Origin: Candidatus Doudnabacteria bacterium CG10_big_fil_rev_8_21_14_0_10_41_10
GTDB taxonomy: Bacteria; Patescibacteriota; Doudnabacteria; UBA920; 2-01-FULL-50-11
Direction: 5' to 3'
NCBI GenBank assembly: GCA_002773695.1
Contig: PFAJ01000070.1
Coordinates: 5,961 to 46,334 of the forward strand
Length of the DNA stretch: 40,374 bases
Shown piece by piece: positions 7,752 to 40,374 of the stretch. The position numbers and the translations under genes are program-made. The notes under the pieces were generated by a model, which saw nothing but the letters and a program-made list of their open reading frames with translations, made no database searches and was not told where the DNA came from. Every line of letters begins with the position of its first letter. The first letter of the stretch is position 1.

Positions 7752-9191
7752 ATGTCCGTTCAAAAAATCTTTCTAAATACAATCCTCCAAAGCGTAGGGA
7801 AGGTAATCTCGGTCGCGATCGGACTGGGCACGATCGCGTTTTTAACGCGTTTTTTAGGAGACGAGGGTTTTGGCGAATACACAACCGTTATCGCTTTTAT
7901 GGGATTTTTTGGGATCCTTGCCGACCTTGGTTTATACCTTGTTACCACGCAAGAAATTTCCCGAGAAGGCGCGGATGAATCCAAAATCCTGGGGAATGTC
8001 TTTTTCTTGCGGTTTCTAACAGTTGTGACCATGCTTGTTATTGGGGCCGTCTTGGCTTTATTTTTTCCATACTCTGCCGAGGTCAAACAGTCTATGTTTT
8101 TGGCAATTGTAGCGTTTGCTTTTGTCTCCGGAACACAGGTGTTGGTTGGTGTCTTTCAAAAACACTTAATTTTTTATAAACTCATCGGTTCGGAAATTAT
8201 TCAGCGGCTTGTCAACCTTGGTTTGGTTGTTTTGTTTATTAAACAAGATTTAGGGATTTTACATTTTATTCTGGCGCTCGCTGTTTCTAACGGAGTCCAT
8301 TTTTTTATTTCCATGTCCATGGCGCAACGAATAACTCCTTTTACCTTACAGCTTGATTTTGCGTTTTGGAAAAATATCTTAGCAAAATCATGGCCACTTG
8401 GTTTCTCTGTTGTCCTTAACCTTATTTACTTCCGAGCAGACACTCTAATCCTTTCGTACTTTAAACCACCAACCGATGTTGGGGTTTATGGGTTGTCTTA
8501 TAAAATTTTAGAAGTGTTAATGGCCTTCCCCGCGATGTTTGCGGGTCTCATAATGCCTTTTTTAGCGCGCTACGCCTTCAAAGAATGGAGTAGATACAAA
8601 AAGTATCTTCAAAATTCTCTTAACGCAATGTTTTTGGTTATTGTCCCAATGATAATTGTAACCCTGTTCTTTGCCAGACCAATAATAAATTTAGTGGGTG
8701 GCGACGGTTTTGTCGGCGCTGATAAAGTTTTACAAATTCTCATTTTCGCAACAGCCCTAATCTATTTAGGAAACCTATTTGGTTATACCGTGGTCGCTTT
8801 AAACGCCCAGAAAAAAATGTTGTGGGGATACGGCGCCGGCGCAGTGGTCGGCCTTCTTTTGTATTTTGTCCTCATCCCTCGTTTTTCTTATTTTGGAGCG
8901 GCTTTTGCCACACTAGCAGTAGAATTGATAGTATTTATTTTTGCCTATTTGGTTACCGGTCGCGCATCAAATTTCTACCCCTCTATTTCCGCTCTATTTA
9001 AGGCTCTACTGGCCGCAATCCCCATGGTTGGGTTCTTCTACTACGTCCAGACACAATGGGTCGCAGAGGCTCTTTCTGGGCTTGCGATATACACCATTTT
9101 TCTTTTTATCTTAAAAGCGGTTCCTCGTGATTTTATTTCCGAGGTAATAAAAAAACGCGAACCTGTCGCGCTTCCTTCCTCGTTCGAATAA
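7752..9191 (+). CDS. MOP-superfamily polysaccharide/oligosaccharide flippase (Wzx/MurJ-like)
   Basis: 479 aa and polytopic (12 or more hydrophobic segments). The N-terminal pattern is typical of polysaccharide biosynthesis protein families. Confidence 0.75.
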   Translation: MSVQKIFLNTILQSVGKVISVAIGLGTIAFLTRFLGDEGFGEYTTVIAFMGFFGILADLGLYLVTTQEISREGADESKILGNVFFLRFLTVVTMLVIGAVLALFFPYSAEVKQSMFLAIVAFAFVSGTQVLVGVFQKHLIFYKLIGSEIIQRLVNLGLVVLFIKQDLGILHFILALAVSNGVHFFISMSMAQRITPFTLQLDFAFWKNILAKSWPLGFSVVLNLIYFRADTLILSYFKPPTDVGVYGLSYKILEVLMAFPAMFAGLIMPFLARYAFKEWSRYKKYLQNSLNAMFLVIVPMIIVTLFFARPIINLVGGDGFVGADKVLQILIFATALIYLGNLFGYTVVALNAQKKMLWGYGAGAVVGLLLYFVLIPRFSYFGAAFATLAVELIVFIFAYLVTGRASNFYPSISALFKALLAAIPMVGFFYYVQTQWVAEALSGLAIYTIFLFILKAVPRDFISEVIKKREPVALPSSFE

Positions 9192-9243
9192 CGATCCCTG
9201 TGACAAGCTTTAGGGTATTCTGCCAAAAATAATAAACCAGACA

Positions 9244-12016: not shown

Positions 12017-13393
12017 TTAAAGACAAGCCTTATCGACTATTAATAAGAGCTCTTGCTTTAGATTGTCGTCTTCTTTTTTGATTCTATTAATCTTATTAAT
12101 AGCATGAATTACTGTGGTATGGTCCCTTCCACCAAAAAACTCACCAATGGAAGGGAGAGACGTTTCCAGTTCTTTTCGGATCAGATACATAGAAATTTGA
12201 CGGGGTTTTACAAACTCTTTTTTTCGGGACTGTTTAACCAAGTCTTCAATGGTTACGTTGTAAAAATTAGCAGCTGCCTCCATAATTTTTCTCGGGGTAA
12301 GGCCGCGCTTCTTTGGTTGTGCTATCAGACTGCTCAATATTTCTTTAACCTTGTCAAGTGAGGGTTTGGTGGTGTTTATTTGGCAGTAAACAATTACTCG
12401 ATTAAGGGCGCCTTCCAACTCCCTAATATTAGATTCAATATTCGTGGCAATAAAATTGATCACTTCCGAAGAGATCTCGTAATTTTTTTCTTTTACTTTA
12501 CTTTTTAAAATAGCGGTTCTTGTTTCCAAATCCGGCGCCTGGATATCCGCCACCATTCCACCCTCAAACCTGGAAACCAGACGCTCCTCAATGGAAGGAA
12601 TTTCTTTTGGTAGCCGGTCTGAGGTAATAATAATTTGTTTATTGTGATTGTGGAGAGCGTTAAAAGTGTGAAAAAATTCTTCTTGGGTTTGCTCTTTCCC
12701 GGCAAGCGATTGAATGTCATCAATTAACAAAACATCGAGTTTACGATAACGGTTTTTAAAATCGTGGGCGCGGCCGTCTTTAACAGCCATAATAAATTCA
12801 TTAATAAAACGCTCGGCGGACACATACAACACTCGACTTTGAGGGGTGTTTTCAATAATTTTTCTACCAACAGCCTGCATGAGGTGAGTTTTACCCAAAC
12901 CGACACCCCCGTAAATAAACAAAGGGTTATAAGCAGTCCCCGGTTTTTCAGTAATAGCCAGTGCCGCCGCGTGAGCGAGTTCGTTGGTTTTTCCAACAAT
13001 AAAATTTCCAAAAGAAAATTTTGGGTTTAGAATACCGGCGAGAGTCCTTGGTTTTTGCGGCGCCTCTTCTATTTTTGTGTCTTTTCTGGTAACAAGTTCT
13101 GTTTTTTGATCTAGTTGTGGAGAAATTGCTGGTGGTTTGGCAAAAGACCCGATTTCGTAACGAATTTCTCTAATTTCAGGATCAATGGATCGCACCGCTT
13201 GTAGGATGTTTTGGTGATATTTTTTTTGAAGCCATTCTTTAGTAAAAGTATTCGGCACCCCTATGGTCACTCCTCCAGGAGTGCTGTTAACAACAAAAGT
13301 ATTTTTAAACCAAGTGGTAAAGTTTGGTTTAGAGAGGGAAAGTTCAAGGTTTCCCAATACTGCCCGCCAAAATTGTTCATTGTTCATGGACAT
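12017..13393 (-). CDS. dnaA: chromosomal replication initiator DnaA
   Basis: GGVGLGKTHLMQA Walker A, LLIDDIQ, and a C-terminal DNA-binding helix (GGRDHTTVIHAINKI). Confidence 0.95.
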   Translation of the reverse strand: MSMNNEQFWRAVLGNLELSLSKPNFTTWFKNTFVVNSTPGGVTIGVPNTFTKEWLQKKYHQNILQAVRSIDPEIREIRYEIGSFAKPPAISPQLDQKTELVTRKDTKIEEAPQKPRTLAGILNPKFSFGNFIVGKTNELAHAAALAITEKPGTAYNPLFIYGGVGLGKTHLMQAVGRKIIENTPQSRVLYVSAERFINEFIMAVKDGRAHDFKNRYRKLDVLLIDDIQSLAGKEQTQEEFFHTFNALHNHNKQIIITSDRLPKEIPSIEERLVSRFEGGMVADIQAPDLETRTAILKSKVKEKNYEISSEVINFIATNIESNIRELEGALNRVIVYCQINTTKPSLDKVKEILSSLIAQPKKRGLTPRKIMEAAANFYNVTIEDLVKQSRKKEFVKPRQISMYLIRKELETSLPSIGEFFGGRDHTTVIHAINKINRIKKEDDNLKQELLLIVDKACL

Positions 13394-13656
13394 TACAAGT
13401 GTTTGATAATTTCTTATTAAAGCGTAATATTTGGCTTAATTGAGCAAAAAAATAGCCAACTGTATGCCTGAAATTCGATTCAATTTATAATAATTTATCA
13501 CGCCCATTCATTTTAACAGATAAGTTATCAACATGTAAAATATATATATTTCGGCTAAATTTAGCGAAATTTTGACAAATCTGTGGATTTGTTGTGGAAG
13601 AAAGGTTGATGATTTTGTTTACCTAACCCTATTTTAAAAAAGAAATTTTCGAAGTC
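13394..13656. other. candidate oriC segment upstream of dnaA (DnaA-box-like sites plus AT-rich tract)
   Basis: TTATCAACA at 13525-13533 (one mismatch to TTATCCACA), TGTGGATTT at 13583-13591, TGTGGAAGA at 13593-13601, and an AT-only run aaaatatatatatt at 13537-13550. Confidence 0.5.
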
Positions 13657-13685
13657 TTGGTAAAAGAACTAAAAAATTGTATAAT
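13657..13685 (+). promoter_or_regulatory. putative sigma70-type promoter of the rpmH operon
   Basis: TTGGTA (13657-13662), a 17-nt spacer containing an extended TG, then TATAAT (13680-13685). It lies 34 nt upstream of the rpmH ATG. Confidence 0.45.
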
Positions 13686-13718
13686 AAAACAGACTTTTTC
13701 ATTAAAATAAGTAAAAAG

Positions 13719-13856
13719 ATGACCAAAAGAACTTGGCAACCAAAGAAAAAAAAGAGAGCGCGTAGTCACGGTTTTCTAAAAAGGCGAAGAACCACAGCCG
13801 GAAGGGCGGTTCTTGCTCGCCGAAGGAACAAAGGAAGAAAAAGAATAACAGTATAA
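13719..13856 (+). CDS. rpmH: 50S ribosomal protein L34
   Basis: 45-aa ORF below the track cutoff: [45 protein letters not shown]. This is a classic L34 sequence in the classic position upstream of rnpA. Confidence 0.92.
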
Positions 13857-13861
13857 TTTCA

Positions 13862-14218
13862 ATGCTTCCCAAACAAAGCCGTTTAAGTAAAGAAAAAGAC
13901 ATTGTGTTGGTGTTGAGAAGAGGACGCCGGCTTACCTCTTCTTTTATGAATTTAAATGTTTTAAATAACCACACAAAAGTTTCGCGGTTTGGGTTTATTG
14001 TTTCAAAAAAAGTCGCGGCCAAACCGATAAAAAGGAATTTGATTAAACGGCGGATGAGAAATATTATTGGGAAACATAAAAAAAATCTCCTAACCGGTTT
14101 TGATTGTCTGTTTGTGACAAAACCTCCCATTAAACTGGTTGATTATCAAGACACAGAAAAAGAGCTGTTGGGGTTGTTGGAGAGAGCGGGGCAAGTAAAG
14201 AAAAAGCCGGGTAGCTAA
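13862..14218 (+). CDS. rnpA: RNase P protein component
   Basis: 118 aa, basic, MLPKQSRLSKEKD...FGFIVSKKVAAKPIKRNLIKRRMR, located after rpmH. Confidence 0.85.
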   Translation: MLPKQSRLSKEKDIVLVLRRGRRLTSSFMNLNVLNNHTKVSRFGFIVSKKVAAKPIKRNLIKRRMRNIIGKHKKNLLTGFDCLFVTKPPIKLVDYQDTEKELLGLLERAGQVKKKPGS

Positions 14219-15691: not shown

Positions 15692-15697
15692 TTTTTG

Positions 15698-15866
15698 TTA
15701 TTTCTGGCAGAATACCCCTGCGGCTTGCATTGTGGGTATTCTGCCTGCCCGAAGCTCCGCGAAGCGGAACGGAGGAAATAACCCGATCAAACACGTCTGC
15801 TAGCATAAATATAAAAATGCGAGCAGACGTAGTATTCCCTTTAGGGAATACCCTGCAAGAAGCTTT
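15698..15866 (+). repeat. structured intergenic element of about 170 nt, copy 1 (candidate ncRNA or non-autonomous element)
   Basis: About 80 percent identical by eye to 40205-40374. Hairpins: GGCAGAATACCC/GGGTATTCTGCC (15706-15745), ACGTCTGCT/AGCAGACGT (15793-15830), and GTATTCCC/GGGAATAC (15832-15851). A possible closing helix pairs TTATTTCT (15698-15705) with GGAAATAA (15774-15781). Confidence 0.55.
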
Positions 15867-15951
15867 AGGGCTCGTTATTTTTGCAGATGCCTAATTTATC
15901 AGGCCGATAAATTGGCAGATTTTACTAAACAAGAAGAGTTAAAATAATTAT

Positions 15952-15986
15952 AAAAAAACCGTCAGTTTTCAGACCGACGGCTTTTT
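15952..15986. terminator. bidirectional-looking terminator hairpin
   Basis: An A-run, CCGTC...GACGG hairpin, then CTTTTT. Confidence 0.5.
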
Positions 15987-16128
15987 AGATATTTTTTAAT
16001 TTATTATTCCCCGCGGCAAGCTGTGAGGTTAACTTTTTATCCAACACCTGCGCCGGTTTAATTTCTTTTTTCATAGTATCTGCCAGCGATTTTTGAAGCC
16101 TCTTTAACGGTTTTTGTTGTAACGGTTA

Positions 16129-21800: not shown

Positions 21801-21835
21801 TAATTTAAACGTCTCAATGAGCCGTTTATTATCTC

Positions 21836-21880
21836 TGGTAGAATATTCCCGCGACTTGCCGCAGGGATCGTTATTTTTTT
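21836..21880 (+). terminator. terminator-like hairpin after tyrS, related to the GGCAGAATACCC hairpin family
   Basis: TGGTAGAATATTCCCGCGACTTGCCGCAGGGATCGTTATTTTTTT: the stem CCCGCG/CGCAGGG followed by a T-run. Confidence 0.5.
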
Positions 21881-32201: not shown

Positions 32202-32273
32202 AGCGGGTAACGGGAGTCGAACCCGTATCTCGTCCTTGGCAAGGACGCATAATAGCCACTATACGATACCCGC
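32202..32273 (-). tRNA. tRNA-Gly (anticodon GCC)
   Basis: The minus strand reads GCGGGTATCGTATAGTGGCTATTATGCGTCCTTGCCAAGGACGAGATACGGGTTCGACTCCCGTTACCCGCT. Cloverleaf with anticodon loop TTGCCAA and T-loop TTCGACT. No encoded CCA. Confidence 0.9.
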
Positions 32274-32369
32274 TAAAAAAACTAACAATATTAATTTTTT
32301 AATTTACAAGGAATTGAGTATTAGTGAGAGAGAGAAAATGAAATACAAAATTGGAAAAAATTATAATAA

Positions 32370-32448
32370 GGTGCGGGGTGAGCCCATATCCCTGCCGGCG
32401 GCAGGGCATCCTTGGCAAGGACGCATAATACCACTATACGATACCCGA
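32370..32448 (-). pseudogene. orphan tRNA-Gly(GCC)-like 5' part fused to a foreign hairpin and the 13-mer TCACCCCGCACC
   Basis: The minus strand reads TCGGGTATCGTATAGTGGTATTATGCGTCCTTGCCAAGGATG-CCCTGCCGCCGGCAGGG-ATATGGGC-TCACCCCGCACC. The acceptor 5' strand, D arm and anticodon arm are nearly identical to the real gene about 100 nt downstream. The T arm is replaced and there is no matching 3' acceptor strand. Confidence 0.65.
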
Positions 32449-32511
32449 CGAAAAGAATATTTAAATATACTTTCCAATTTTAACTTAAAAACAATCCTTC
32501 TTCAACCCCCC

Positions 32512-32540
32512 TTGACAGATAACTCTATATATGCTAATAT
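32512..32540 (+). promoter_or_regulatory. near-consensus sigma70-type promoter
   Basis: TTGACA (32512-32517), a 17-nt spacer, then TAATAT (32535-32540). Confidence 0.55.
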
Positions 32541-32546
32541 AACATT

Positions 32547-32900
32547 TAAACCTAAATTACCAATTGGTATTGACCGTTGTTATGGGCGTGTCTTTCTTCC
32601 TGATTTTTCAGGGCAGACAGGCCCATCCATCACAGCGGTTAAGTGCTAAAACAGCAATTCTTCACTCGCTCTTTAAATCCGGTAGTGCAACCTCGATTTT
32701 CTGCCTTGCCTTTATGTGGCAAATTCAGAACATTTACCCCAATTTCAAAAGATTTCAGTTTTCAGTAACTTTGTCTGTCAGACGTAGGAGAAATGTGTCG
32801 AGGTTATACTACCGGAGCATAAATATTAATCCCGACTTTTTTTCTGAATAATTTTTGTTTAGGTAAAAAAGTCAGGGAGGAGTTTAAAATTCACTGGTAC
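32547..32900 (+). promoter_or_regulatory. long, highly structured 5' leader or candidate ncRNA upstream of 32901-33482
   Basis: Three long hairpins: 32573-32639 (about 25 bp including CCTGA/TCAGG at the tip); 32678-32816 (19-bp base TCCGGTAGTGCAACCTCGA / TCGAGGTTATACTACCGGA with one wobble and one mismatch); and 32831-32877 (CCCGACTTTTTT / AAAAAAGTCAGGG), which runs into the GGGAGGAG Shine-Dalgarno at 32875-32882. Confidence 0.45.
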
Positions 32901-33482
32901 ATGTTGGCGTTAATTATCTGGGCGCTTTCAGATAAGGAAAACAAACTTTCCTTATCGGAGCAGATGCTAGCCAGTATTGCTCTATCAGCTATGTTGCTCT
33001 GGGTTTTCCCCAACGCAGCGTTAGCCCAAAGTGTTCAGACTACACCACAGCTGGCCTTTGAAATTAAACACCAAAATTATCAAGAGTCACCGCAACCGGT
33101 ATTCCCGCGAGATATTCCTGGCAATAAACTCTTTACCTTAAAAAATTATCTGGCAAGCAAAAATTCCCCTCTTGTCGATCACGTTGAAATATTGTTACTA
33201 CAACGAAACTGGAAAATTGTTTTAGCAATTTCCCAAGCGGAAAGCAATATGTGTAAACGTGAAATCGGCCATAACTGTTGGGGCATCGGCGGTGGCAATC
33301 ATCGTAAATACCCAAGCTATGCCGAAGCGATTGTGGATGCCAACGACGTCGTGCAGAGGTATTTAAACCGCGGACACACCGGCACCAAAAGTATGATGCT
33401 TTACTACGTTGGTTGGGACAACCAATCTTGGGTCGTTGCTACTCAAAATATATTATATCAATTAAATCAAATAGGAATCTAA
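32901..33482 (+). CDS. secreted or membrane-anchored protein, possibly a peptidoglycan glycosidase-like enzyme (weak)
   Basis: 193 aa with an N-terminal hydrophobic signal-like segment ending AALAQS. The segment LAISQAESNMCKREIGHNCWGIGGG loosely resembles muramidase/glucosaminidase catalytic regions. The ATG is 20 nt from the SD, and an in-frame ATT at 32889 is better spaced. Confidence 0.55.
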   Translation: MLALIIWALSDKENKLSLSEQMLASIALSAMLLWVFPNAALAQSVQTTPQLAFEIKHQNYQESPQPVFPRDIPGNKLFTLKNYLASKNSPLVDHVEILLLQRNWKIVLAISQAESNMCKREIGHNCWGIGGGNHRKYPSYAEAIVDANDVVQRYLNRGHTGTKSMMLYYVGWDNQSWVVATQNILYQLNQIGI

Positions 33483-33511
33483 AAAATCCCCCCGTTTGGG
33501 GGGATTTTTTT
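33481..33511. terminator. bidirectional terminator
   Basis: AAAAA-ATCCCCCC-GTTT-GGGGGGAT-TTTTTT. Confidence 0.75.
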
Positions 33512-33512
33512 A

Positions 33513-33622
33513 TTGCTAGGATCATTTGCGACAAAGCAATCACAACCGTGAGATCCCTCGACTCCGCTCGGAATGACAGTGTGTGCGATTGCTTCTCTCC
33601 CTTCGGGAGATCGCAATTACAA
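33513..33622. repeat. GC-rich REP-like palindromic cluster
   Basis: TTGCGACAAAGCAATCACAAC ... CCTCGACTCCGCTCGGAATGACA ... GTGCGATTGCTTCTCTCCCTTCGGGAGATCGCAATTACAAC. It contains several short GC-rich hairpins in an otherwise AT-rich intergenic region. Confidence 0.4.
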
Positions 33623-34060
33623 CTAGTTAAGTTTATTTTTATACTTTTCTAAAAATTCTGGAAGCACCGAATGAAGCTCGCTCTGAGGCGGGATATTATC
33701 CATGCGAAACCATTTTATTTCATCAAATTTATGCGGCTCGTTGTTTTTTACTATTTTTGGATCAACTAATACTTTGTAATCAAGGGCAATCCAGTGGGTC
33801 TTTTGTCCTTCATGTTTCCGGTGGACATCGCGAATACCTAAAAATTCAAAATCCAAAACATCGGTATTGTATTCTTCTTTGATTTCTTTTTGGAGAGTTT
33901 TTTCAACAGTGTCGCCAAACTCCATTCCCCCGCCACCAATATCCCAGCGACCATTTTCATCACGCGCCTGTTTTGATCGCTTGGCCATTATAAAATTGCC
34001 TTTACCATCGTGGCAAAAATAGACTGTGGTCACACCTATATAATCAAATCCTTTTTTCAT
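33623..34060 (-). CDS. NUDIX hydrolase
   Basis: Nudix box GGGGMEFGDTVEKTLQKEIKEEYN. 145 aa. Confidence 0.85.
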   Translation of the reverse strand: MKKGFDYIGVTTVYFCHDGKGNFIMAKRSKQARDENGRWDIGGGGMEFGDTVEKTLQKEIKEEYNTDVLDFEFLGIRDVHRKHEGQKTHWIALDYKVLVDPKIVKNNEPHKFDEIKWFRMDNIPPQSELHSVLPEFLEKYKNKLN

Positions 34061-34177
34061 AACAGGAATCGTTTCCTTACTTTTTTTTAGGCTTTTACTC
34101 CGATTAATGCGAATCGTCCGTATTTCTTTTTAGATTCTCGGATCGATAAGAATGATACGAATAAAGATAAATCCAAC

Positions 34178-34714
34178 TTATAATCTAACTAGCCTGTACT
34201 CCCATCCTGGTCTCCATGCCCAAGGGGTGGTTACCGCCTGCCTTAAAAGGGTCTTATTTATAAAATATTCAAGAGCATATTGTGTTGCCCGGTGACCTAT
34301 TATTAAAACAGTTTTGCCGTCGTATTTTTTTAGTAAGTCTAGCAAAAAAAATTTCATTAGCGTCGTGGTTTATTCATAGCTTTCCCCTTCTGGAAAAGGT
34401 ATTTTTACCTTCCGAGCTTTTTGGTATTTAACCTCGGCGCTTGGTCGTTTGGTCATCTTCCCGTAATCAATCTCCGAAAGTCTTTTGTCAATAATTATCG
34501 GGATACGATTTTCGAATGCGATTTTTCCCGTATCCAAAGATTTTTTTAGATTGGAACAAAAAACCGCGTCGGGTAAATTATTTTTATACCTATCCCCCAA
34601 TTGTTTCGCTTGCGTCTCACCTAGTTTGGAGAGTTCTATATCATAGTGACCTGAGGCAAGTCCTTTTTCATTGTTCAAAGTTGTACCGTGTGCTTCAAAA
34701 ATGATAGTAATCAT
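34178..34714 (-). pseudogene. histidine phosphatase (phosphoglycerate-mutase-like) family gene interrupted by an in-frame TAA
   Basis: The N-terminal part (34373-34714) ends ...PEGESYE, followed by TAA at 34370-34372. The same frame then continues TTTLMKFFLLDLLKKYDGKTVLIIGHRATQYALEYF...RLVRL to the stop at 34178-34180. The canonical RHG motif reads EAHGTT, so the catalytic Arg is replaced by Ala. Confidence 0.7.
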
Positions 34715-34815
34715 TTCGTTTTATTCTACGTGAAACAATTGTAAAACACTCTTAATCGGGGCGCTGGGAGTTGATCCGCCTAGGCGGACTACACGCGCCT
34801 TTACCCCGTTAAACA

Positions 34816-34886
34816 TCGGGATGCCGGGAATCGAACCCGGTCTTCACGCACCCGAAGCGCGCGTACTACCGGTATACTACATCCCG
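34816..34886 (-). tRNA. tRNA-Pro (anticodon CGG)
   Basis: The minus strand reads CGGGATGTAGTATACCGGTAGTACGCGCGCTTCGGGTGCGTGAAGACCGGGTTCGATTCCCGGCATCCCGA. Anticodon loop TTCGGGT with G37, T-loop TTCGATT. Confidence 0.9.
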
Positions 34887-35031
34887 ATGATGTCTAACGG
34901 GGCGAACGTACGTTTTTTATTTTGTGAAATTTTTTAAAAGAAATTTGTTCCGGTTAAATTCCCTCCCCCGATCTCGTTTCCATGAGATTTTTTGAGCTTT
35001 ACCCCCGGCGGAATTTCACCCCGCACCTTTT

Positions 35032-35103
35032 TCTCCCCACCAGGAATCGAACCTGGATCTAGGGCTTAGGAGTCCCTTGTTCTATCCATTGAACTACGGG
35101 GAG
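35032..35103 (-). tRNA. tRNA-Arg (anticodon CCT)
   Basis: The minus strand reads CTCCCCGTAGTTCAATGGATAGAACAAGGGACTCCTAAGCCCTAGATCCAGGTTCGATTCCTGGTGGGGAGA. Anticodon loop CTCCTAA. It closely parallels the E. coli argW layout as I remember it. Confidence 0.88.
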
Positions 35104-35108
35104 CAAAA

Positions 35109-35174
35109 GGCGCGGGGTGAACTTACATTTAGAGCTTAGGCTTCCCTTGTTCTATCCATTGAACTTACGGGGAC
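35109..35174 (-). pseudogene. orphan tRNA-Arg(CCT)-like 5' part ending in TTCACCCCGCGCC
   Basis: The minus strand reads GTCCCCGTAAGTTCAATGGATAGAACAAGGGAAGCCTAAGCTCTAAATGTAAG-TTCACCCCGCGCC. The D arm is identical to the real gene 5 nt downstream. The anticodon loop is changed to AGCCTAA (U33 lost), and there is no T arm or 3' acceptor strand. Confidence 0.65.
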
Positions 35175-35238
35175 TCTTCTTTAATTTTAGCAACCTATTC
35201 TCCTACTAACAAACCCGCCTTTATAGCGGGCTTGTTTC

Positions 35239-35309
35239 TGGACCCACGGGGAATCGAACCCCGACCTCATCCATGCCATGGACGCGTAATGCCACTTTAC
35301 TATGGGCCC
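35239..35309 (-). tRNA. tRNA-Ala (anticodon GGC)
   Basis: The minus strand reads GGGCCCATAGTAAAGTGGCATTACGCGTCCATGGCATGGATGAGGTCGGGGTTCGATTCCCCGTGGGTCCA. G3:U70 identity pair present; anticodon loop ATGGCAT. Confidence 0.9.
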
Positions 35310-35418
35310 TGGTTTGGGCCAACTGCCTGCCCACCGAAGTCATAGACAAAGGTGGGAGCGATAGGCCCATACTATTTTAGATTACCTAAAGCAATATATC
35401 ATAAATTGTATTATTATT

Positions 35419-35460
35419 AAAGGAGAAAGCCGCACCGGACGAAATTGGTCCAATGCGGCT
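35419..35460 (-). terminator. terminator-like hairpin after the 87-aa ORF
   Basis: AGCCGCA...TGCGGCT stem with an inner GGAC/GTCC stem, followed on the minus strand by TTTCTCCTTT. Confidence 0.5.
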
Positions 35461-35471
35461 GGTTGGGGCTC

Positions 35472-35735
35472 CTAGTTACTGGGGTTTTGGTTTCTGTTTT
35501 GGCGGCGGGAAAAGACGATCCCGCTCCATTTTCTAAACCAAGGCAACTGCTTCCTCTCATACGAAGTTAACCCTTCTATGTTACCTTGTGATTCCAACAA
35601 TTCGTTGTGCAATCCAAGCACAAGCCCTTCATCAACAGGTGAAAGTCCATATTTACTTATCTTTTCTTTCAACCTTCTAATTTCCAGTTCTCGTTCTGTG
35701 GTATCCGGCCCGATCCCAGATGGCACCGAAGACAT
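35472..35735 (-). CDS. hypothetical 87-aa protein
   Basis: The ATG at 35735 lies 7 nt after AAGGAGG (35743-35749 on the complement). Sequence MSSVPSGIGPDTTERELEIRRLKEKISKYGL... has no recognised family. It is divergent from the parS-bearing intergenic region. Confidence 0.55.
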   Translation of the reverse strand: MSSVPSGIGPDTTERELEIRRLKEKISKYGLSPVDEGLVLGLHNELLESQGNIEGLTSYERKQLPWFRKWSGIVFSRRQNRNQNPSN

Positions 35736-35883
35736 AATTGACCTCCTTTTTCTAGTTTGGTGTTTGTTTCCCAGACGAACCATGTTGCATGAAAAGTTTA
35801 TCCCTAATCTGATCATTGGTCAATACTAATAACAAGTATAGTTTTATACTAGTAAATAGTAATTTTGTCAAATAGAATACAAT

Positions 35884-35899
35884 TGTTTCACGTGAAACA
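35884..35899. promoter_or_regulatory. perfect canonical ParB-binding parS palindrome
   Basis: TGTTTCACGTGAAACA matches the well-known chromosomal parS consensus at 16 of 16 positions. With flanks it extends to an 18-bp palindrome, TTGTTTCACGTGAAACAA. Confidence 0.75.
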
Positions 35900-35971
35900 A
35901 TACTAAATACAGTATTTTCTGTGAAACATACTTATTTAATAGCATGTTTCTTGTGAAACAATAATTAAATA

Positions 35972-37771
35972 ATGGCTAAATTTACACAAAAATTCATCCT
36001 AATCTTATTTGGAATATTGGTTCTTCTCCTTCCTATACAAACCAGATTAATCCAATTTATCCCTGAATCACACATTGATCAGAGTTTCATATTCTATAAT
36101 GTGCTATTTTTGTATATTTCAGACATTATTTTAGCTCTAACTCTAATAATCTGGGCCTTTTCAGGCTTGTTTCACATGAAACAAGCCTCCCCAACTATGC
36201 TTCAGCGCAAGGAGCAAGAGAGTGTTTCCCACGAAACATATAATAAGGCTCTTAATAATGTCGGCAAGAGGAATGTTTTCCATGAAACTAAGCTGGGTAG
36301 ATTAGGTAATGTTTCGCATGAAACATACCTTTGGTTGTTTTTTCTTGTTTCTTGTTCATCACTCATTGTTTCACGTCAAACAATAGGATCATGGGAGTTG
36401 ACTTTTTTTGGCTTATTTAAGCTATTTTTAGCTGTTTCTTTGTTTAGTTTCATGCGAAACATATTTAAAAAGGGTGTTTTCCATGAAATTTCGACTGTAG
36501 AAGGTCATTCTAAGAAGAGTTTCTGGGGGATGTTTCCCATGAAACAGTTGGCAACTTCTACTTTTTGGCTAATTTTAGCAACTTCTATGTTTCAGGCTGG
36601 ATTATCCATTATTCAGTACTTTACCCAGAAATCTGTAGGAGTGAAACTTTTAGGCGAAGAGGTTATAAGAAACCATATTCCGGGCATAGCCAAATTTATT
36701 GTTTCAGGAGCACCAAGATGGTCGCTTGATCGTCTGTTTGATGTTTCCCATGGAACATCGATTTTAATTCGTCCGTATGGTACATTTTCTCACCCTAATA
36801 TTTTTGGGGCCTTTATGTTTTTCTCTGCTCTAATAAATTTTTACCTCTATGTTTCATATGGAACAAATGTTCAAAACAATGATCAAAAAGAGGGGAGCGT
36901 TTCCCGTGGAAGATGGGTTAAGGGATTGCTTTCGTTTGTTCTTTTCGTTCAGATTTTTGCCGGAGTAATTTCTTTTTCTCGAGTCGCGATAGTGGCGTTT
37001 GGTTTATCGACCCTTTTTTGGTTTGTGTTAATGTGTTTCATGGGAAACAAATCCAAAGCAAATGTCATTTCCGCGTTGCGCCCTTCTGAAGCCTTTGGCG
37101 AAGGAGGGAAAACGGGAATCCATGACCGAGAAGACAGGCAAGTAAGAAAACCTGGATACCCGATCGGATTCGGGGATGACAAAAAAACAAAGATAGCAAT
37201 AAAATCTTTCAGTCTTACATTTTTTAAAAAAGAAGGAAGGGGACTGATTATTACTTTGGTAGCGAGTGGGATTATCCTGTCAGCACTTTTCTACCCTCAC
37301 TTTTTAGAGCGTGGGGGAGTTGTTTCACATGGAACAACTAACGAAAGGTCTATATCTGAAAGGATTTTATATCAAAAAATTTCCGTGGAGATGATAAAAC
37401 AAAACCCACTCACCGGAGTGGGTTACAAGAATTTTGTAATGGTAATGGATGACTATAGCCCACAAAAATTACAGTCGAACCAACATCAACCTGTCCACAA
37501 TATTTATTTATTGATAGCCGCAGAAACCGGTTTACCCGCCTTGATAATATTTTTGATATTTATAATAACTATTCTAAAGCAAGCCTGGTGGAATCGAAAA
37601 GATCCTTTAATCATAACTTTATTATCTATATTTATCGGATTCCTTTTTATCGGACTGTTTGATCATTACTTATTGACTATCCAGCAGGGGAGACTAATGT
37701 TTTTTTTAACCGCGGGATTGTTGGCAGTATCATCCAAAATAGCAGTACCAGCCTACTCTATGAAAAAGTAA
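35972..37771 (+). CDS. enlarged O-antigen ligase/polymerase-like (Wzy_C) membrane protein carrying the parS-like palindromes
   Basis: 599 aa. The C-terminal part has the Wzy_C-like segment FSRVAIVAFGL...HQPVHNIYLLIAAETGLPALI. The N-terminal and central parts contain hydrophilic inserts with recurring VSHET/VFHET/MFPMKQ peptides. Confidence 0.75.
   Translation: MAKFTQKFILILFGILVLLLPIQTRLIQFIPESHIDQSFIFYNVLFLYISDIILALTLIIWAFSGLFHMKQASPTMLQRKEQESVSHETYNKALNNVGKRNVFHETKLGRLGNVSHETYLWLFFLVSCSSLIVSRQTIGSWELTFFGLFKLFLAVSLFSFMRNIFKKGVFHEISTVEGHSKKSFWGMFPMKQLATSTFWLILATSMFQAGLSIIQYFTQKSVGVKLLGEEVIRNHIPGIAKFIVSGAPRWSLDRLFDVSHGTSILIRPYGTFSHPNIFGAFMFFSALINFYLYVSYGTNVQNNDQKEGSVSRGRWVKGLLSFVLFVQIFAGVISFSRVAIVAFGLSTLFWFVLMCFMGNKSKANVISALRPSEAFGEGGKTGIHDREDRQVRKPGYPIGFGDDKKTKIAIKSFSLTFFKKEGRGLIITLVASGIILSALFYPHFLERGGVVSHGTTNERSISERILYQKISVEMIKQNPLTGVGYKNFVMVMDDYSPQKLQSNQHQPVHNIYLLIAAETGLPALIIFLIFIITILKQAWWNRKDPLIITLLSIFIGFLFIGLFDHYLLTIQQGRLMFFLTAGLLAVSSKIAVPAYSMKK
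36168..37336. repeat. array of 13 degenerate parS-like 16-mers inside the CDS
   Basis: Site starts are 36168, 36223, 36274, 36310, 36367, 36446, 36475, 36531, 36742, 36850, 36898, 37034 and 37321. All fit TGTTTC-N4-GAAACA with 1-5 mismatches to TGTTTCACGTGAAACA. Confidence 0.65.
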
Positions 37772-38003
37772 TTTTAACGCTGTTAAACAATAGAAAATAA
37801 AGCTAGTAAGAGACATTAGTTTTCAGGAGGACTACAAATGACAGACCGCACGGTTTTGTTGGGGGGTATTATTCGGATATAAACCGCTTTTGTTATTGTG
37901 TGGATTACAGCAACATTTGTTTTTCTGGTATTTCTGGATTTGAATAATCGGGGGAAATCACAAGCTTTTTTGTTGTTTTATGTGAGATTGCAATAATGCA
38001 ATT

Positions 38004-38273
38004 GTGCTTCCAATTTTGCCTAAAAAGAAACATTTGGCATGGGGAATATTCACCGATGGAGGTTTTAAAAGGGTAGCTTGTGGCATGGTTTTGATGATGG
38101 TGTTTGCAACAACTGCATTGATCCCACAGCAAAAGATTGATATGGCAAACTGGAGGGAATTACCTTTTATAACCAAAACCTTATGGGCGCTGGTGTTATT
38201 GGGTTTTTTTGGAGGCCTTGAGAGTTTACTTCTCCAAATGTTTTGGTTCGAACGGAAGCGCTCGCCAGTATAA
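38004..38273 (+). CDS. possible small membrane protein (may be part of a broken gene)
   Basis: 89-aa GTG-initiated ORF with two hydrophobic segments. The upstream frames (37838 onward) contain a good SD and ATG but are cut by stops. Confidence 0.3.
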   Translation: MLPILPKKKHLAWGIFTDGGFKRVACGMVLMMVFATTALIPQQKIDMANWRELPFITKTLWALVLLGFFGGLESLLLQMFWFERKRSPV

Positions 38274-38426
38274 CCCTCGATCCTTTTATCTGGTTTTTTT
38301 ATCCAAACAAAAAACCCTACCTTCACAGGGGGTATTTGGAAGTAATTTTATTTTTTAACTTAGCTTTGTGTACCCAGAGGAGAATCCTTTATCGCTAAAG
38401 CCTTGGAGGACACAGTCAAATTCTTA

Positions 38427-38610
38427 AACCTGCTCTGCTTCGCAGGTTATGAATTACGAAACTCTCTAAACCGCATGTGTCATTGCGACCCCGGACTAGA
38501 TCCGGGGGCGGCAATCTCGTGGTGTTCCCTTGGGAGTGCTTCTCCGTCCGCCGTGGCGGACGGATCGCAGTGACATGAAATTAGAGTTTCGTAATTTAAG
38601 TTCGCAGGAT
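38427..38610. repeat. GC-rich nested-hairpin element (candidate structured RNA or REP-like unit)
   Basis: Hairpin AACCTGC/GCAGGTT (38427-38448); outer 14-bp stem AATTACGAAACTCT (38452-38465) / AGAGTTTCGTAATT (38583-38596); inner stem GTCATTGCGA (38479-38488) / TCGCAGTGAC (38565-38574). These enclose the hairpins CCCCGGA-CTAGA-TCCGGGG (38489-38507) and TCCGTCCGCC-GT-GGCGGACGGA (38543-38564). Confidence 0.45.
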
Positions 38611-38701
38611 ACTTTGTTGTTTTTAAATTAACAAAAAATCGTTTTTTTACGAAACAGCATTTGCACTTCGTAGCCCCGAGTAATAGCGAGGAGCGAAGAA
38701 G

Positions 38702-38772
38702 TGGACTCACCGGGAATCGAACCCGGGCCTCAGCAATGCGAATGCCGCGTAATACCACTTTACTATGAGCCC
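38702..38772 (-). tRNA. tRNA-Ala (anticodon CGC)
   Basis: The minus strand reads GGGCTCATAGTAAAGTGGTATTACGCGGCATTCGCATTGCTGAGGCCCGGGTTCGATTCCCGGTGAGTCCA. G3:U70 present; anticodon loop TTCGCAT. Confidence 0.9.
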
Positions 38773-40143: not shown

Positions 40144-40204
40144 AAATCTCAAATCTGAAACACCAAGTTATTTGGGATTTGGTTGTTGGGATTTGAGATT
40201 TTTA
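40144..40204 (+). terminator. terminator-like long hairpin after the bactofilin gene
   Basis: AAATCTCAAATC ... GATTTGAGATTT arms followed by a T-rich tail. Confidence 0.5.
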
Positions 40205-40374
40205 TTATTTCTGGCAGAATACCCCCGCGGTAAGCATTAGGGTTGTTCCGCCTGCCCGAAGTTCCACAGGAGCGGAACGGAGGAAATAACCCGATCAAAC
40301 ACGTCTGCGGGCATAAAGACAAAAATGCGAGCAGACATAAAGTATTCCCAATAAGGAATACTCCTAAAGAGCGC
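40205..40374 (+). repeat. structured intergenic element of about 170 nt, copy 2 (reaches the window edge)
   Basis: Aligns along its whole length with 15698-15866. The block GGAACGGAGGAAATAACCCGATCAAACACGTCTGC is identical in both copies. Confidence 0.55.

What the first reader, a model, noticed from the sequence alone, without database searches (positions are those of the whole stretch)
15698..15866. Structured element of about 170 nt present twice in the window; candidate novel ncRNA or non-autonomous mobile element
Copy 1 follows jag and copy 2 (40205-40374) follows the bactofilin gene. Both are on the same strand, about 24.5 kb apart, and about 80 percent identical by eye.

The conserved architecture is:
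- TTATTTCT, which can pair with GGAAATAA about 70 nt downstream
- enclosed by that helix, a 12-bp hairpin (GGCAGAATACCC / GGGTATTCTGCC) and a second short GC hairpin around GCGGAAC
- an invariant single-stranded-looking block GGAACGGAGGAAATAACCCGATCAAACAC
- a long hairpin ACGTCTGC...GCAGACGT with an A-rich loop
- GTATTCCC-loop-GGGAATAC

Differences between the copies cluster in loops and in one arm of the first hairpin, while the linker block is identical.

The 3' hairpin arm GGGAATACCC could also pair with GGGTATTC of the first hairpin, so alternative folds are possible.

I cannot match it to any RNA family I know. It is not RNase P, tmRNA, SRP or a tRNA.
Basis: seen in the sequence. Interest (0 to 1): 0.66.

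Follow-up and report, generated by a model that had tools for sequence, protein, structure and literature searches.

The report
Small hairpin-rich mobile repeat family
The two look-alike 185-base structured segments belong to a family of small gene-less repeats that has recently spread through one uncultured Patescibacteria genome, so it is most likely a parasitic mobile DNA element rather than a conserved RNA gene.

Summary
Copy 1 is window 15695-15879 (185 nt). Copy 2 starts at 40202 and is cut by the window end.

It is not a two-copy curiosity. The same organism carries at least 7 long copies at distinct loci, two of them 100% identical with different flanks. It also carries at least 4 short (49-50 nt) forms that join the long form's 5' and 3' ends; two of these lie in the window (9187-9235 minus, 21826-21875 plus).

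- Copies sit in either orientation relative to neighbouring genes, and they abut or overlap stop and start codons.
- Metagenome assemblies break inside them.
- Syntenic relatives (85%, 73% and 65% Jag identity) lack them.
- There are no terminal inverted repeats and no target duplication.
- Both ends carry TTATT, and there are related hairpins near each end.
- The short forms resemble the roughly 52-bp terminal-only derivatives described for palindrome-associated transposable elements (PATEs).

Best reading: a lineage-specific, non-autonomous element of the PATE / IS200-IS605 type, moved as single-stranded DNA by a transposase supplied in trans. That transposase was not found.

A 24-nt central block is the best conserved part and is complementary to both termini. 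Its role is open; it could be a cis guide or a guide-RNA scaffold.

The parts
15695..15879 (+). Long copy 1 (185 nt), 3-4 nt after the jag stop codon.
   Evidence: Boundaries come from comparing 7 long and 4 short copies. The fold has z = -6.6.
15694..15705 (+). 5' terminal motif T-TTATT-ATTTCY, conserved in all 11 copies. TTATT may be the target motif next to the left end.
   Evidence: Flank comparison. Pairwise difference is 5.6%.
15706..15745 (+). Hairpin H1, GGCAGAATACCCC - variable loop - GGGGTATTCTGCC; candidate left subterminal palindrome.
   Evidence: The arms differ by 10-12% and the loop by 49-69%.
15748..15755 (+). CCCGAAGY, which can pair with RCUUUAGGG at 15862-15870 as a long-range helix.
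   Evidence: helix 3: 97.9% of cells paired; the end pair is seen as C-G, U-G and U-A.
15771..15794 (+). Central block GGAGGAAATAACCCGATCAAACAC, the most conserved segment. GGAAATAA is complementary to the 5' end (TTATTTCY), and AAATAAC..GATC is complementary to the 3' end (GATCGTTATTT).
   Evidence: Pairwise difference is 2.8%, against about 23% overall across all six copies.
15793..15830 (+). Hairpin H3, ACGTCTGC..GCAT - A-rich loop - ATGC..GCAGACGT.
   Evidence: In L030b its loop carries a 41-nt GC-rich insert.
15832..15851 (+). Hairpin H4, GTATTCCC-TTTA-GGGAATAC; candidate right subterminal palindrome. Its arms resemble H1's arms in swapped order.
15842..15870 (+). Internal direct repeat DR2 (GGGAATACCC-TGC..GC-TTTAGGG), a copy of DR1 at 15708-15736. 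Deleting between DR1 and DR2 gives the short form.
   Evidence: The similarity is modest, about 65-75%.
15871..15879 (+). 3' terminal motif (A/C)TCG-TTATT, followed by a pyrimidine in 11 of 11 copies.
40202..40374 (+). Long copy 2, cut by the window end after 173 of 189 nt. It follows the bactofilin gene.
9187..9235 (-). Short form sA (49 nt), squeezed between the convergent polysaccharide-synthase and dciA genes. The TAA stop of the + strand gene lies inside its terminal AATAA.
21826..21875 (+). Short form sB (50 nt), 25 nt after the tyrS stop codon.
15874..15887 (+). Possible remnant of a second, decayed copy's 5' end abutting copy 1 (TTATTTTT-GCAGA against TTATTTTTGGCAGA).
   Evidence: score 21, against 17 for the shuffle 95th percentile and a shuffle maximum of 25. 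Weak.

Best explanation
The element is one member of a lineage-specific family of small, gene-less mobile DNA repeats in an uncultured Patescibacteria genome.

**Shown**
- The long form is 185 nt and hairpin-rich.
- It has spread to at least 7 loci.
- It decays to 49-50 nt forms that keep only the two ends.

**Inferred mechanism**
- It is a palindrome-associated transposable element (PATE) of the IS200/IS605 type.
- One strand (the + strand as written) is excised and reinserted as single-stranded DNA by a Y1 HUH transposase (TnpA or a RAYT-like enzyme) encoded elsewhere in the genome.
- That enzyme would recognise the related hairpins near each end (H1 and H4).
- It would cut next to the TTATT motif that flanks the left end and terminates the right end.
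- This leaves no inverted repeats and no target duplication.
- The short forms arise by deletion between the two internal direct repeats.

**Central block**
The 24-nt central block is complementary to both termini and is under the strongest constraint. I infer that it either holds the two ends together in the folded strand or is the core of an element-encoded RNA.
For: **Copy number and recent movement**
- There are 7 long copies at distinct loci and 4 short ones in about 130 kb of this organism.
- L040 and L030a are 100% identical over 185 nt but have unrelated flanks on both sides.
- Contigs from several assemblies end inside the element: L002, L008, L010, L013, L014, L031 and the window itself.

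**Absence from relatives**
- The jag-downstream site has no element in relatives at 85%, 73% and 65% Jag identity.
- The 20-kb fully syntenic locus L064 has no copy at the jag or tyrS site, nor anywhere else in the locus; the dciA neighbourhood there is rearranged.
- Exact-word scans of 185,579 species genomes, of JGI metagenomes and of viral contigs found real copies only in this population.

**Placement**
- Three long copies share the strand of the adjacent genes and three are antisense to them. One (L030a) lies upstream of infC on the opposite strand.
- Copies abut or overlap stop and start codons. The gpmI ORF runs 16 nt into one copy.

**Architecture**
- No terminal inverted repeat scores above shuffles, and there is no shared flank word.
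- TTATT sits at both boundaries, with 6 nt from the left TTATT to the foot of H1 and 28 nt from the foot of H4 to the right end.
- H1 and H4 stems are related (AGAATACCC against AGTATTCCC).
- AATA lies directly 5' of both CCC...GGG imperfect palindromes in the internal repeats DR1 and DR2. In IS608, 4-nt guides lie 5' of each hairpin foot and pair with the cleavage sites (PMC3201880). TTTAT-type target motifs are known in the family (PMC10055086).
- The 49-50 nt short forms match HMM positions from both ends, sharing one copy of the internal repeat. This parallels the Haloquadratum PATE HqIRS46, where deletion between a 22-bp direct repeat gives a 52-bp terminal-only element (PMC3119063).

**Constraint**
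- Conservation is strongly uneven: block 3%, 5' end 6%, stems 10-12%, loops 50-77%. This indicates selection among propagating copies rather than uniform decay.
- Of the changed helix cells, 19 keep a pair (mostly G-U / G-T as read on the + strand) and 9 break it.
Against: - No Y1 transposase, TnpB, RAYT or any other transposase was found. Pfam annotation of L001, L009 and L060-L063 and my scan of L040 and L039 show only one XerC/D-like recombinase. Only a fraction of the genome could be reached.
- No empty-site allele was recovered, so the exact boundaries and the lack of target duplication rest on flank comparison alone.
- The strand test is inconclusive. Four of five copies around the probable origin fit a top strand on the lagging-strand template, and by the sign of local GC skew 8 of 11 fit. 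The skew is weak and not independent of gene orientation.
- The palindromes inside the internal repeats fold weakly on their own (-2 to -6 kcal/mol, z not significant). The short forms therefore may not be mobile.
- In the long form the candidate guide AATA is buried in the H1 and H4 stems.
- The right hairpin is 28 nt from the end, further than the 10 nt in IS608.
- No compensatory double changes were seen, and covariation is no better than shuffles (340 of 500).
Confidence: 0.5

Rival explanations
1. It is a PATE that carries a guide-RNA scaffold. The right-hand ~110 nt (central block, H3, H4 and the 3' end) would be transcribed as an omega-RNA-like scaffold. Its last helix, block pairing with GATCGTTATTT, would end exactly at the right boundary, so the adjacent flank would serve as the guide for a TnpB- or IscB-type nuclease encoded elsewhere. 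This refines the best explanation rather than excluding it.
For: - PATEs 'often encode omega-RNAs' that are acted on in trans (PMC10055086).
- The block is the most conserved part of the element (2.8% difference). It is absent from the short forms, which retain both termini, so if the short forms can move the block is not needed in cis.
- RNAalifold pairs block columns 84-96 with the 3' terminal columns 222-232, enclosing H3 and H4.
- A TTTAT / TTATT motif next to the left end resembles known TnpB target-adjacent motifs (PMC10055086).
Against: - No tnpB or iscB gene was found in the reachable sequence.
- No Rfam family matched at E <= 10 in any of three copies, and no omega-RNA-type family was among even the weak hits.
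- No promoter-like site lies in or before the element.
- There are no expression data.
- Translations of the element match no protein, so there is no sign that it descends from the 3' end of a tnpB gene.
Confidence: 0.15
2. It is a REP/BIME-like family maintained by a single-copy domesticated RAYT transposase. The ~50-nt short form would be the basic repeat unit, and the long form a composite of units in alternating orientation, like a REPIN or BIME.
For: - The 13-mer GGCAGAATACCCC and related arms occur four times in the long form in the order forward, reverse, reverse, forward.
- Copies are extragenic and often sit just after genes.
- The short units have a constant length.
Against: - The short forms are poor hairpins.
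- They lack the conserved GTAG-type 5' tetranucleotide next to a palindrome that is typical of REPs (this rests on my knowledge of REPs).
- The density, about 1 per 10 kb, is modest.
- The long form has 100 nt of unique, conserved core that is not made of repeat units.
- No RAYT gene was found.
Confidence: 0.12
3. It is a family of stand-alone structured small RNA genes (paralogous sRNAs) that function as RNA, with the repeats arising by gene duplication.
For: - The fold is strong (z = -6.6).
- 96.9% of cells are paired across six copies. One-sided changes are mostly wobble on the + strand, and one pair is seen as C-G, U-G and U-A.
- The single-stranded block is highly conserved.
Against: - It is absent from syntenic relatives and from every other genome and metagenome scanned.
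- Copies overlap coding ends and lie antisense inside operons, for example between prfA and prmC.
- No promoter-like site is present.
- End-only derivatives exist.
- Two copies are identical at unrelated loci.
- There is no covariation beyond shuffles.
- The opposite strand folds equally well.
Confidence: 0.08
4. It is a non-autonomous element moved by another enzyme class: a DDE transposase (a classical MITE), a serine, tyrosine or DEDD site-specific recombinase (IS607- or IS110-like, or the nearby XerC/D-like protein), or a reverse transcriptase (SINE-like).
For: - The enzyme is unknown.
- A tyrosine recombinase gene lies 6.6 kb from one copy.
- The internal block's complementarity to both ends is reminiscent of the guide loops of IS110 bridge RNAs (this rests on my knowledge; it was not tested).
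Against: - There are no terminal inverted repeats and no target duplication, which argues against a DDE enzyme.
- Flanks beyond TTATT are not conserved, so there is no long specific target of the kind IS110 or integrases use.
- There is no A- or T-tail length variation and no 5' truncation of the kind expected from retro-copies; 5 of 7 long copies are exactly 185 nt.
Confidence: 0.1

Closest known systems
Palindrome-associated transposable elements (PATEs) derived from IS200/IS605-family insertion sequences, e.g. HqIRS46 of Haloquadratum walsbyi and the PATE-like elements of Geobacillus stearothermophilus
   Same: - It is gene-less and 50-200 bp long.
- It has no terminal inverted repeats and no target duplication.
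- It has related hairpins near both ends.
- A short T-rich motif lies next to the left end, and a similar motif ends the right end.
- Internal direct repeats mediate core deletion to a roughly 50-bp terminal-only form (PMC3119063, PMC10055086, PMC3201880).
   Different: - No sequence similarity to any described element was detected.
- No TnpA or TnpB partner was found.
- The right hairpin lies further from the end than in IS608.
- The best conserved part is an internal block complementary to both termini, which is not a described PATE feature.
- The host is a Patescibacteria (CPR) bacterium with a small genome.
REP / REPIN / BIME repeats mobilised by RAYT transposases
   Same: These are short extragenic hairpin-forming repeats in many copies, with units in alternating orientation, and they rely on the HUH Y1 enzyme superfamily.
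   Different: The long form has a unique 100-nt conserved core. The short units fold poorly. No GTAG-type head and no RAYT gene were seen.
TnpB/IscB omega-RNA (guide-RNA scaffolds at IS200/IS605 ends; Rfam HEARO and IS605-orfB motifs)
   Same: It is a structured segment of about 110-130 nt that ends at the right boundary of the element, closed by a helix that uses the terminal nucleotides.
   Different: There is no covariance-model match, no nuclease gene and no expression evidence.
Classical bacterial MITEs (e.g. Correia, RUP, ERIC)
   Same: These are small, non-coding, intergenic, structured when transcribed, and they cause assembly breaks.
   Different: MITEs have terminal inverted repeats and target duplications. 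This family has neither.

Membership tests
IS200/IS605-type PATE | No terminal inverted repeats | tested here: met
   Aligning the first 30 nt against the reverse complement of the last 30 nt scores 5-7. Shuffles average about 5 and reach 8-12, in all 11 copies.
IS200/IS605-type PATE | No target-site duplication; scarless insertion | tested here: inconclusive
   No consistent direct repeat abuts the boundaries. No empty-site allele close enough to prove the exact junction was recovered.
IS200/IS605-type PATE | Related imperfect palindromes near both ends, on one strand | tested here: met
   H1 lies 6 nt from the left TTATT and H4 lies 28 nt from the right end. Their stems are related. The weaker CCC...GGG palindromes inside the internal repeats fold poorly alone.
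IS200/IS605-type PATE | Conserved 4-5 nt target motif abutting the left end, and a similar motif at the right end | tested here: met
   T-TTATT precedes ATTTCY in 9 of 11 copies (the other two have TTGTT and TCATT). TTATT ends all 11 copies, preceded by G in all and by a second G instead of T in copy 2. Whether the left motif belongs to the target or to the element cannot be told without an empty site.
IS200/IS605-type PATE | 4-nt DNA guide 5' of each hairpin foot that pairs with the cleavage motif | tested here: inconclusive
   AATA lies 5' of both CCC...GGG palindromes and is complementary, position by position, to TTAT. It is buried in the H1 and H4 stems, and the pairing register is unproven (rule taken from PMC3201880).
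IS200/IS605-type PATE | Y1 HUH transposase (TnpA) in the same genome | not testable with these tools
   None was found in about 130 kb reachable. The remainder of the genome could not be fetched.
IS200/IS605-type PATE | Active strand lies on the lagging-strand template | tested here: inconclusive
   Four of five copies around the dnaA/rpmH origin region fit. By the sign of local GC skew, 8 of 11 fit. The skew is weak.
IS200/IS605-type PATE | Terminal-only derivatives of about 50 bp produced by repeat-mediated core deletion | tested here: met
   Four forms of 49-50 nt match both end HMMs through one shared repeat. The precedent is PMC3119063.
Conserved structured ncRNA gene | Present in related genomes, with compensatory base-pair changes | tested here: not met
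   It is absent from syntenic relatives. There are 0 pairs with changes on both sides, and the covariation score is reached by 340 of 500 shuffles.
Conserved structured ncRNA gene | Match to a curated RNA family | tested here: not met
   Rfam 15 at gathering thresholds and at E <= 10.
Classical MITE (DDE-mobilised) | Terminal inverted repeats plus target-site duplication | tested here: not met
TnpB/IscB omega-RNA | Scaffold ends at the element boundary, the guide comes from the flank, and a cognate nuclease gene is present | not testable with these tools
   A helix using the last 11 nt of the element is predicted. No nuclease gene, no transcript data and no model match are available.

The most novel reading that the evidence does not exclude
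The long form would be a self-contained 'guided' element. Its invariant central block (GGAAATAAC-CC-GATC) would base-pair with both of the element's own termini. It would act either in the excised single strand, bringing the two cleavage sites together, or in a transcript that forms a new kind of transposon guide-RNA scaffold ending at the right boundary. That would be an IS200/IS605-like system in CPR bacteria with an RNA or DNA guide architecture unlike any described omega-RNA.
Probability: 0.15. Interest if true: 0.6.

Novelty: new member of a known kind. Interest (0 to 1): 0.33.

Why it matters
- Patescibacteria have tiny, streamlined genomes, and I know of few descriptions of mobile repeats in them. 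An actively spreading non-autonomous element at roughly one copy per 10 kb shows that such genomes still tolerate selfish DNA.
- These repeats fragment metagenome assemblies of this lineage. The window and at least six other contigs end inside a copy. Knowing the repeat helps to close such genomes.
- If the conserved central block proves to be a guide, in DNA or RNA, it would add a compact and divergent example to the transposon-guide systems that gave rise to Cas9 and Cas12.
- As a candidate new RNA class the finding is weak, and it should not be catalogued as a conserved ncRNA.

Tried and rejected
**Searches that found nothing useful**
- Rfam at gathering thresholds and at E <= 10 on three copies gave nothing.
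- The exact 18-mer scan of GTDB species genomes returned only chance hits.
- The metagenome scan returned this population plus unrelated coding hits (L027/28/34/35/38).
- One of two viral-contig scans returned chance hits only and the other returned none.
- Searching the protein database with the 65-aa ORF that runs through one copy found no candidate. I had hoped for spurious ORF calls in other copies or for a transposase C-terminus.

**Readings I rejected**
- Protein coding: one frame is open through 4 of 7 copies, but it is shifted or stopped in the others. It has no start codon or ribosome-binding site.
- Riboswitch, leader or 3'-UTR element: orientation relative to neighbouring genes is mixed.
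- Promoter inside the element: none.
- DGR template/variable repeat, retron, CRISPR, integron attC (the GTTRRRY core is not met) and dif site: considered from the sequence and dropped.
- Complementarity of GATCAAAC and GGAGG to the 5' and 3' ends of 16S rRNA: noted but treated as chance, since an 8-mer match is expected about 0.7 times.

**Tests that were uninformative**
- GC skew as a replication-direction test is too weak.
- A search for closer relatives through PBP1a found nothing nearer than 74% identity, so no empty site was obtained.
- A Pfam scan of ten further ORFs near copies found no transposase.

Full report
**1. The observation**

Both segments are present on the + strand as described.
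- They are 83.5% identical over 194 nt by BLASTN.
- The 29-nt block GGAACGGAGGAAATAACCCGATCAAACAC occurs exactly twice, where shuffles give none.
- Copy 1 folds at -75.7 kcal/mol, with z = -6.6 against dinucleotide shuffles.
- The truncated copy 2 folds less well (z = -2.9).
- The reverse strand of copy 1 folds equally well (z = -7.5), so the fold alone identifies neither a strand nor an RNA.
- Rfam 15 has no match at gathering thresholds anywhere near the element. At E <= 10 nothing consistent appears in three different copies.
- The window ends inside copy 2. A 59-kb contig that carries the identical bactofilin gene (L009) supplies the missing 3' end and shows that a DAGK-type kinase gene follows.

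**2. A repeat family with two size classes**

BLAST and profile searches of the loci fetched with the window's own proteins turned up pieces of the element elsewhere. These pieces are not fragments. Each is a 49-50 nt unit made of the first ~25 nt of the long element, one copy of an internal repeat, and the last ~12 nt.
- Two of these short forms lie in the window: 9187-9235 on the minus strand and 21826-21875 on the plus strand.
- Two more lie in L009 and L044.

A metagenome scan with an 18-mer from the conserved block found further long copies only in contigs from the same samples that hold this organism. These are L040, L030a, L030b, L042 (the same locus as L039) and L044 (the same locus as L031).

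That makes 7 long copies at distinct loci.
- Five are exactly 185 nt.
- Copy 2 is 189 nt.
- L030b is 223 nt, because a 41-nt GC-rich hairpin sits in the loop of hairpin H3.
- L040 and L030a are identical over the whole element, yet their flanks differ on both sides. One of the two is therefore a recent copy.
- Contigs from several assemblies stop inside the element: L002, L008, L010, L013, L014, L031 and the window itself. This is what a dispersed repeat does to assemblers.

**3. Distribution**

The organism is a Patescibacteria bacterium, judging by the names that sources give to the closest homologues.
- In relatives with 85%, 73% and 65% identical Jag proteins, the region downstream of jag has no element. 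In the 85% relative the same terminator hairpin is recognisable about 40 nt after the stop codon, where the window has about 260 nt.
- The 65% relative (L064) has the same gene order over 20 kb. It has no copy at the jag or tyrS site, nor anywhere else in the locus. Its dciA neighbourhood is rearranged.
- An 18-mer scan of one genome from each of 185,579 species gave only chance hits. Viral contigs gave nothing real.
- The PBP1a search found no relative closer than 74% identity.

As far as these data reach, the family is confined to one population.

**4. Context**

Three long copies share the strand of the adjacent genes: copy 1, copy 2 and L030b. Three are antisense to the adjacent genes: L040, L042/L039 and L044. 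L030a lies upstream of infC on the opposite strand. One of the antisense copies lies between prfA and prmC, which are on the same strand.

Copies are wedged into very short spacers.
- Copy 1 starts 3-4 nt after the jag stop codon.
- The short form sA fills the 52-nt gap between two convergent genes, and its terminal AATAA provides one of the stop codons.
- Another short form abuts the gpmI start codon.
- The gpmI reading frame runs 16 nt into the L044 copy.
- No sigma-70-like promoter lies in or just upstream of copy 1.

This pattern does not fit a leader, a riboswitch, a 3'-UTR element or a conserved sRNA gene. It fits selfish DNA.

**5. Anatomy of the long form**

| Segment | Sequence or description |
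|---|---|
| 5' end | T-TTATT-ATTTCY |
| Hairpin H1 | GGCAGAATACCCC / GGGGTATTCTGCC with a variable loop |
| Variable linker | includes a weak hairpin (H2) |
| Central block | GGAGGAAATAACCCGATCAAACAC |
| Hairpin H3 | A-rich loop |
| Hairpin H4 | GTATTCCC-TTTA-GGGAATAC |
| Internal repeat DR2 | GAATACCC...GC...TTTAGGG |
| 3' end | ATCG-TTATT, followed by a pyrimidine in 11 of 11 copies |

- The ends are not inverted repeats, and the flanks share no duplicated word.
- The segment GAATACCC..GC..TTAGGG occurs twice in direct orientation (DR1 and DR2, about 65-75% alike). Removing everything between the two copies yields the short form.
- The H1 and H4 stems are related (AGAATACCC against AGTATTCCC), with arm order swapped.
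- The central block is complementary to both termini. AAATAAC..GATC pairs with GATCGTTATTT at the 3' end.

**6. Constraint**

Pairwise differences are very uneven. In the three copies that were not selected through the search word, the values are as follows:

| Segment | Pairwise difference |
|---|---|
| Central block | 2.8% |
| 5' end | 5.6% |
| Hairpin arms | 10-12% |
| Linker | 27% |
| DR2 | 39% |
| Loops | 50-77% |

- Uniform decay of dead copies would not produce this. The copies descend from lineages that were selected to keep the ends, the stems and above all the central block.
- Across six copies, 96.9% of helix cells are paired.
- 19 changed cells keep a pair, mostly G-U (or G-T) as read on the + strand, and 9 break it.
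- No pair changed on both sides, and the covariation score is matched by 340 of 500 shuffles.
- With six sequences from one genome this test has little power. It gives a mild hint that the + strand is the folded one, and no proof of an RNA.

**7. Mechanism**

The combination is the signature of IS200/IS605-family elements and their gene-less PATE derivatives. It consists of no inverted repeats, no duplication, related hairpins near both ends, a short T-rich motif next to the left end that recurs as the last bases of the right end, and strong single-strand structure.

In IS608 the transposase binds subterminal hairpins. It cuts 3' of TTAC, 19 nt upstream of the left hairpin, and after TCAA, 10 nt downstream of the right one. 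The cleavage sites are read by 4-nt guides just 5' of each hairpin (PMC3201880). Related elements use TTTAT and TTCAT next to the left end and a similar motif at the right end, and gene-less PATE-like copies exist that often carry guide RNAs (PMC10055086).

In Haloquadratum, PATE HqIRS46 has a 22-bp direct repeat representing its two near-terminal palindromes. Deletion between the repeats leaves a 52-bp terminal-only element (PMC3119063). That is the same relation as the 185-nt and 50-nt forms here.

I therefore infer single-strand 'peel and paste' transposition by a Y1 transposase supplied in trans.

What is shown: the repeat family, its recent copying, its restriction to this lineage, and its architecture.

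What is inferred: the enzyme class, TTATT as the cleavage or target motif, and AATA (5' of both CCC...GGG palindromes, and complementary position by position to TTAT) as the guide.

Weak points:
- No transposase was found in the sequence I could reach.
- No empty site was recovered.
- The strand test was inconclusive.
- The internal-repeat palindromes fold weakly on their own, so the short forms may be dead.
- AATA is buried in stems in the long form.

**8. The central block**

The short forms retain both termini but lack the block, so it may not be needed for recognition of the ends. Even so, it is the most constrained part of the long form. Two readings remain.
- It may hold the two ends together in the folded strand.
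- It may be the core of an element-encoded RNA whose closing helix ends at the right boundary, as in TnpB guide RNAs.

Neither can be tested without a genome and transcript data. I give the second reading about 15%.

**9. Verdict**

The 'novel ncRNA' reading is not supported, and the 'non-autonomous mobile element' reading is. The family is new in sequence and in host, but it belongs to a known kind. Interest is modest.

Noticed in passing
L030:5955-6179 (H3 loop) and L009:11642-11670: A 41-nt GC-rich hairpin (ATGAGGCCCCGACC...GGCGGGGAGGCGG) is inserted in the loop of hairpin H3 of copy L030b. A perfect GC-rich palindrome (GGCCCACCTGCC-GACGA-GGCAGGTGGGCC) sits directly beside short copy sC. 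Both stand out in a 38-40% GC genome and may represent a second kind of tiny insertion.
   Followed up: partly
window 15874-15887: The last bases of copy 1 plus its flank (TTATTTTT-GCAGA) match the 5' start of a short copy at 13 of 14 positions. This may be a decayed second copy inserted in tandem at the same TTATT. The score is 21, against 17 for the shuffle 95th percentile.
   Followed up: partly
L044:29-2642: A C-terminal fragment of gpmI, a short copy, a full gpmI gene and a long copy lie in a row. The full gene's reading frame ends 16 nt inside the element, which lengthens its C-terminus by about 10 residues compared with the fragment.
   Followed up: partly
L030:3936-6179: Two long copies on the same strand bracket 1.8 kb. 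The bracketed segment holds a small membrane-protein ORF and a PaaX-like regulator split into two ORFs. The layout resembles a composite transposon.
   Followed up: no
window 12017-13900: dnaA (minus strand) and rpmH-rnpA-yidD-yidC-jag (plus strand) diverge here, the classical position of oriC. GC skew changes sign weakly (-0.05 to the left, +0.02 to the right).
   Followed up: partly
window 15944-16074 (-): There is a sub-threshold Rfam hit to the L10 leader (33.4 bits, gathering score 44). It is mostly the bidirectional terminator at 15953-15986, and the upstream gene on that strand is a Wzy-type ligase. It is probably not a real leader.
   Followed up: partly
window 32202-38772 (-): Five tRNA genes lie on the minus strand (Rfam 56-65 bits).
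   Followed up: no
L040:6618-7562: A XerC/D-like tyrosine recombinase gene lies 6.6 kb from a long copy. It is probably the housekeeping chromosome-dimer resolvase.
   Followed up: no
window 15700-15891 (+) and equivalent positions in other copies: One reading frame (..ISGRIP..TEEITRSNTSASIN.KMRADVVFPLGNTL.E.LG.VI..) is open through the whole element in 4 of 7 copies. It is shifted or stopped in the others, has no start codon or ribosome-binding site, and matches no protein.
   Followed up: yes
L064:10600-10800: In the 65% relative, the jag-to-wzy spacer holds a small ORF (starting MARWKLHPILKRRKPEGPRINIDTGRPVSKKVAQ...) where the window has the repeat.
   Followed up: no
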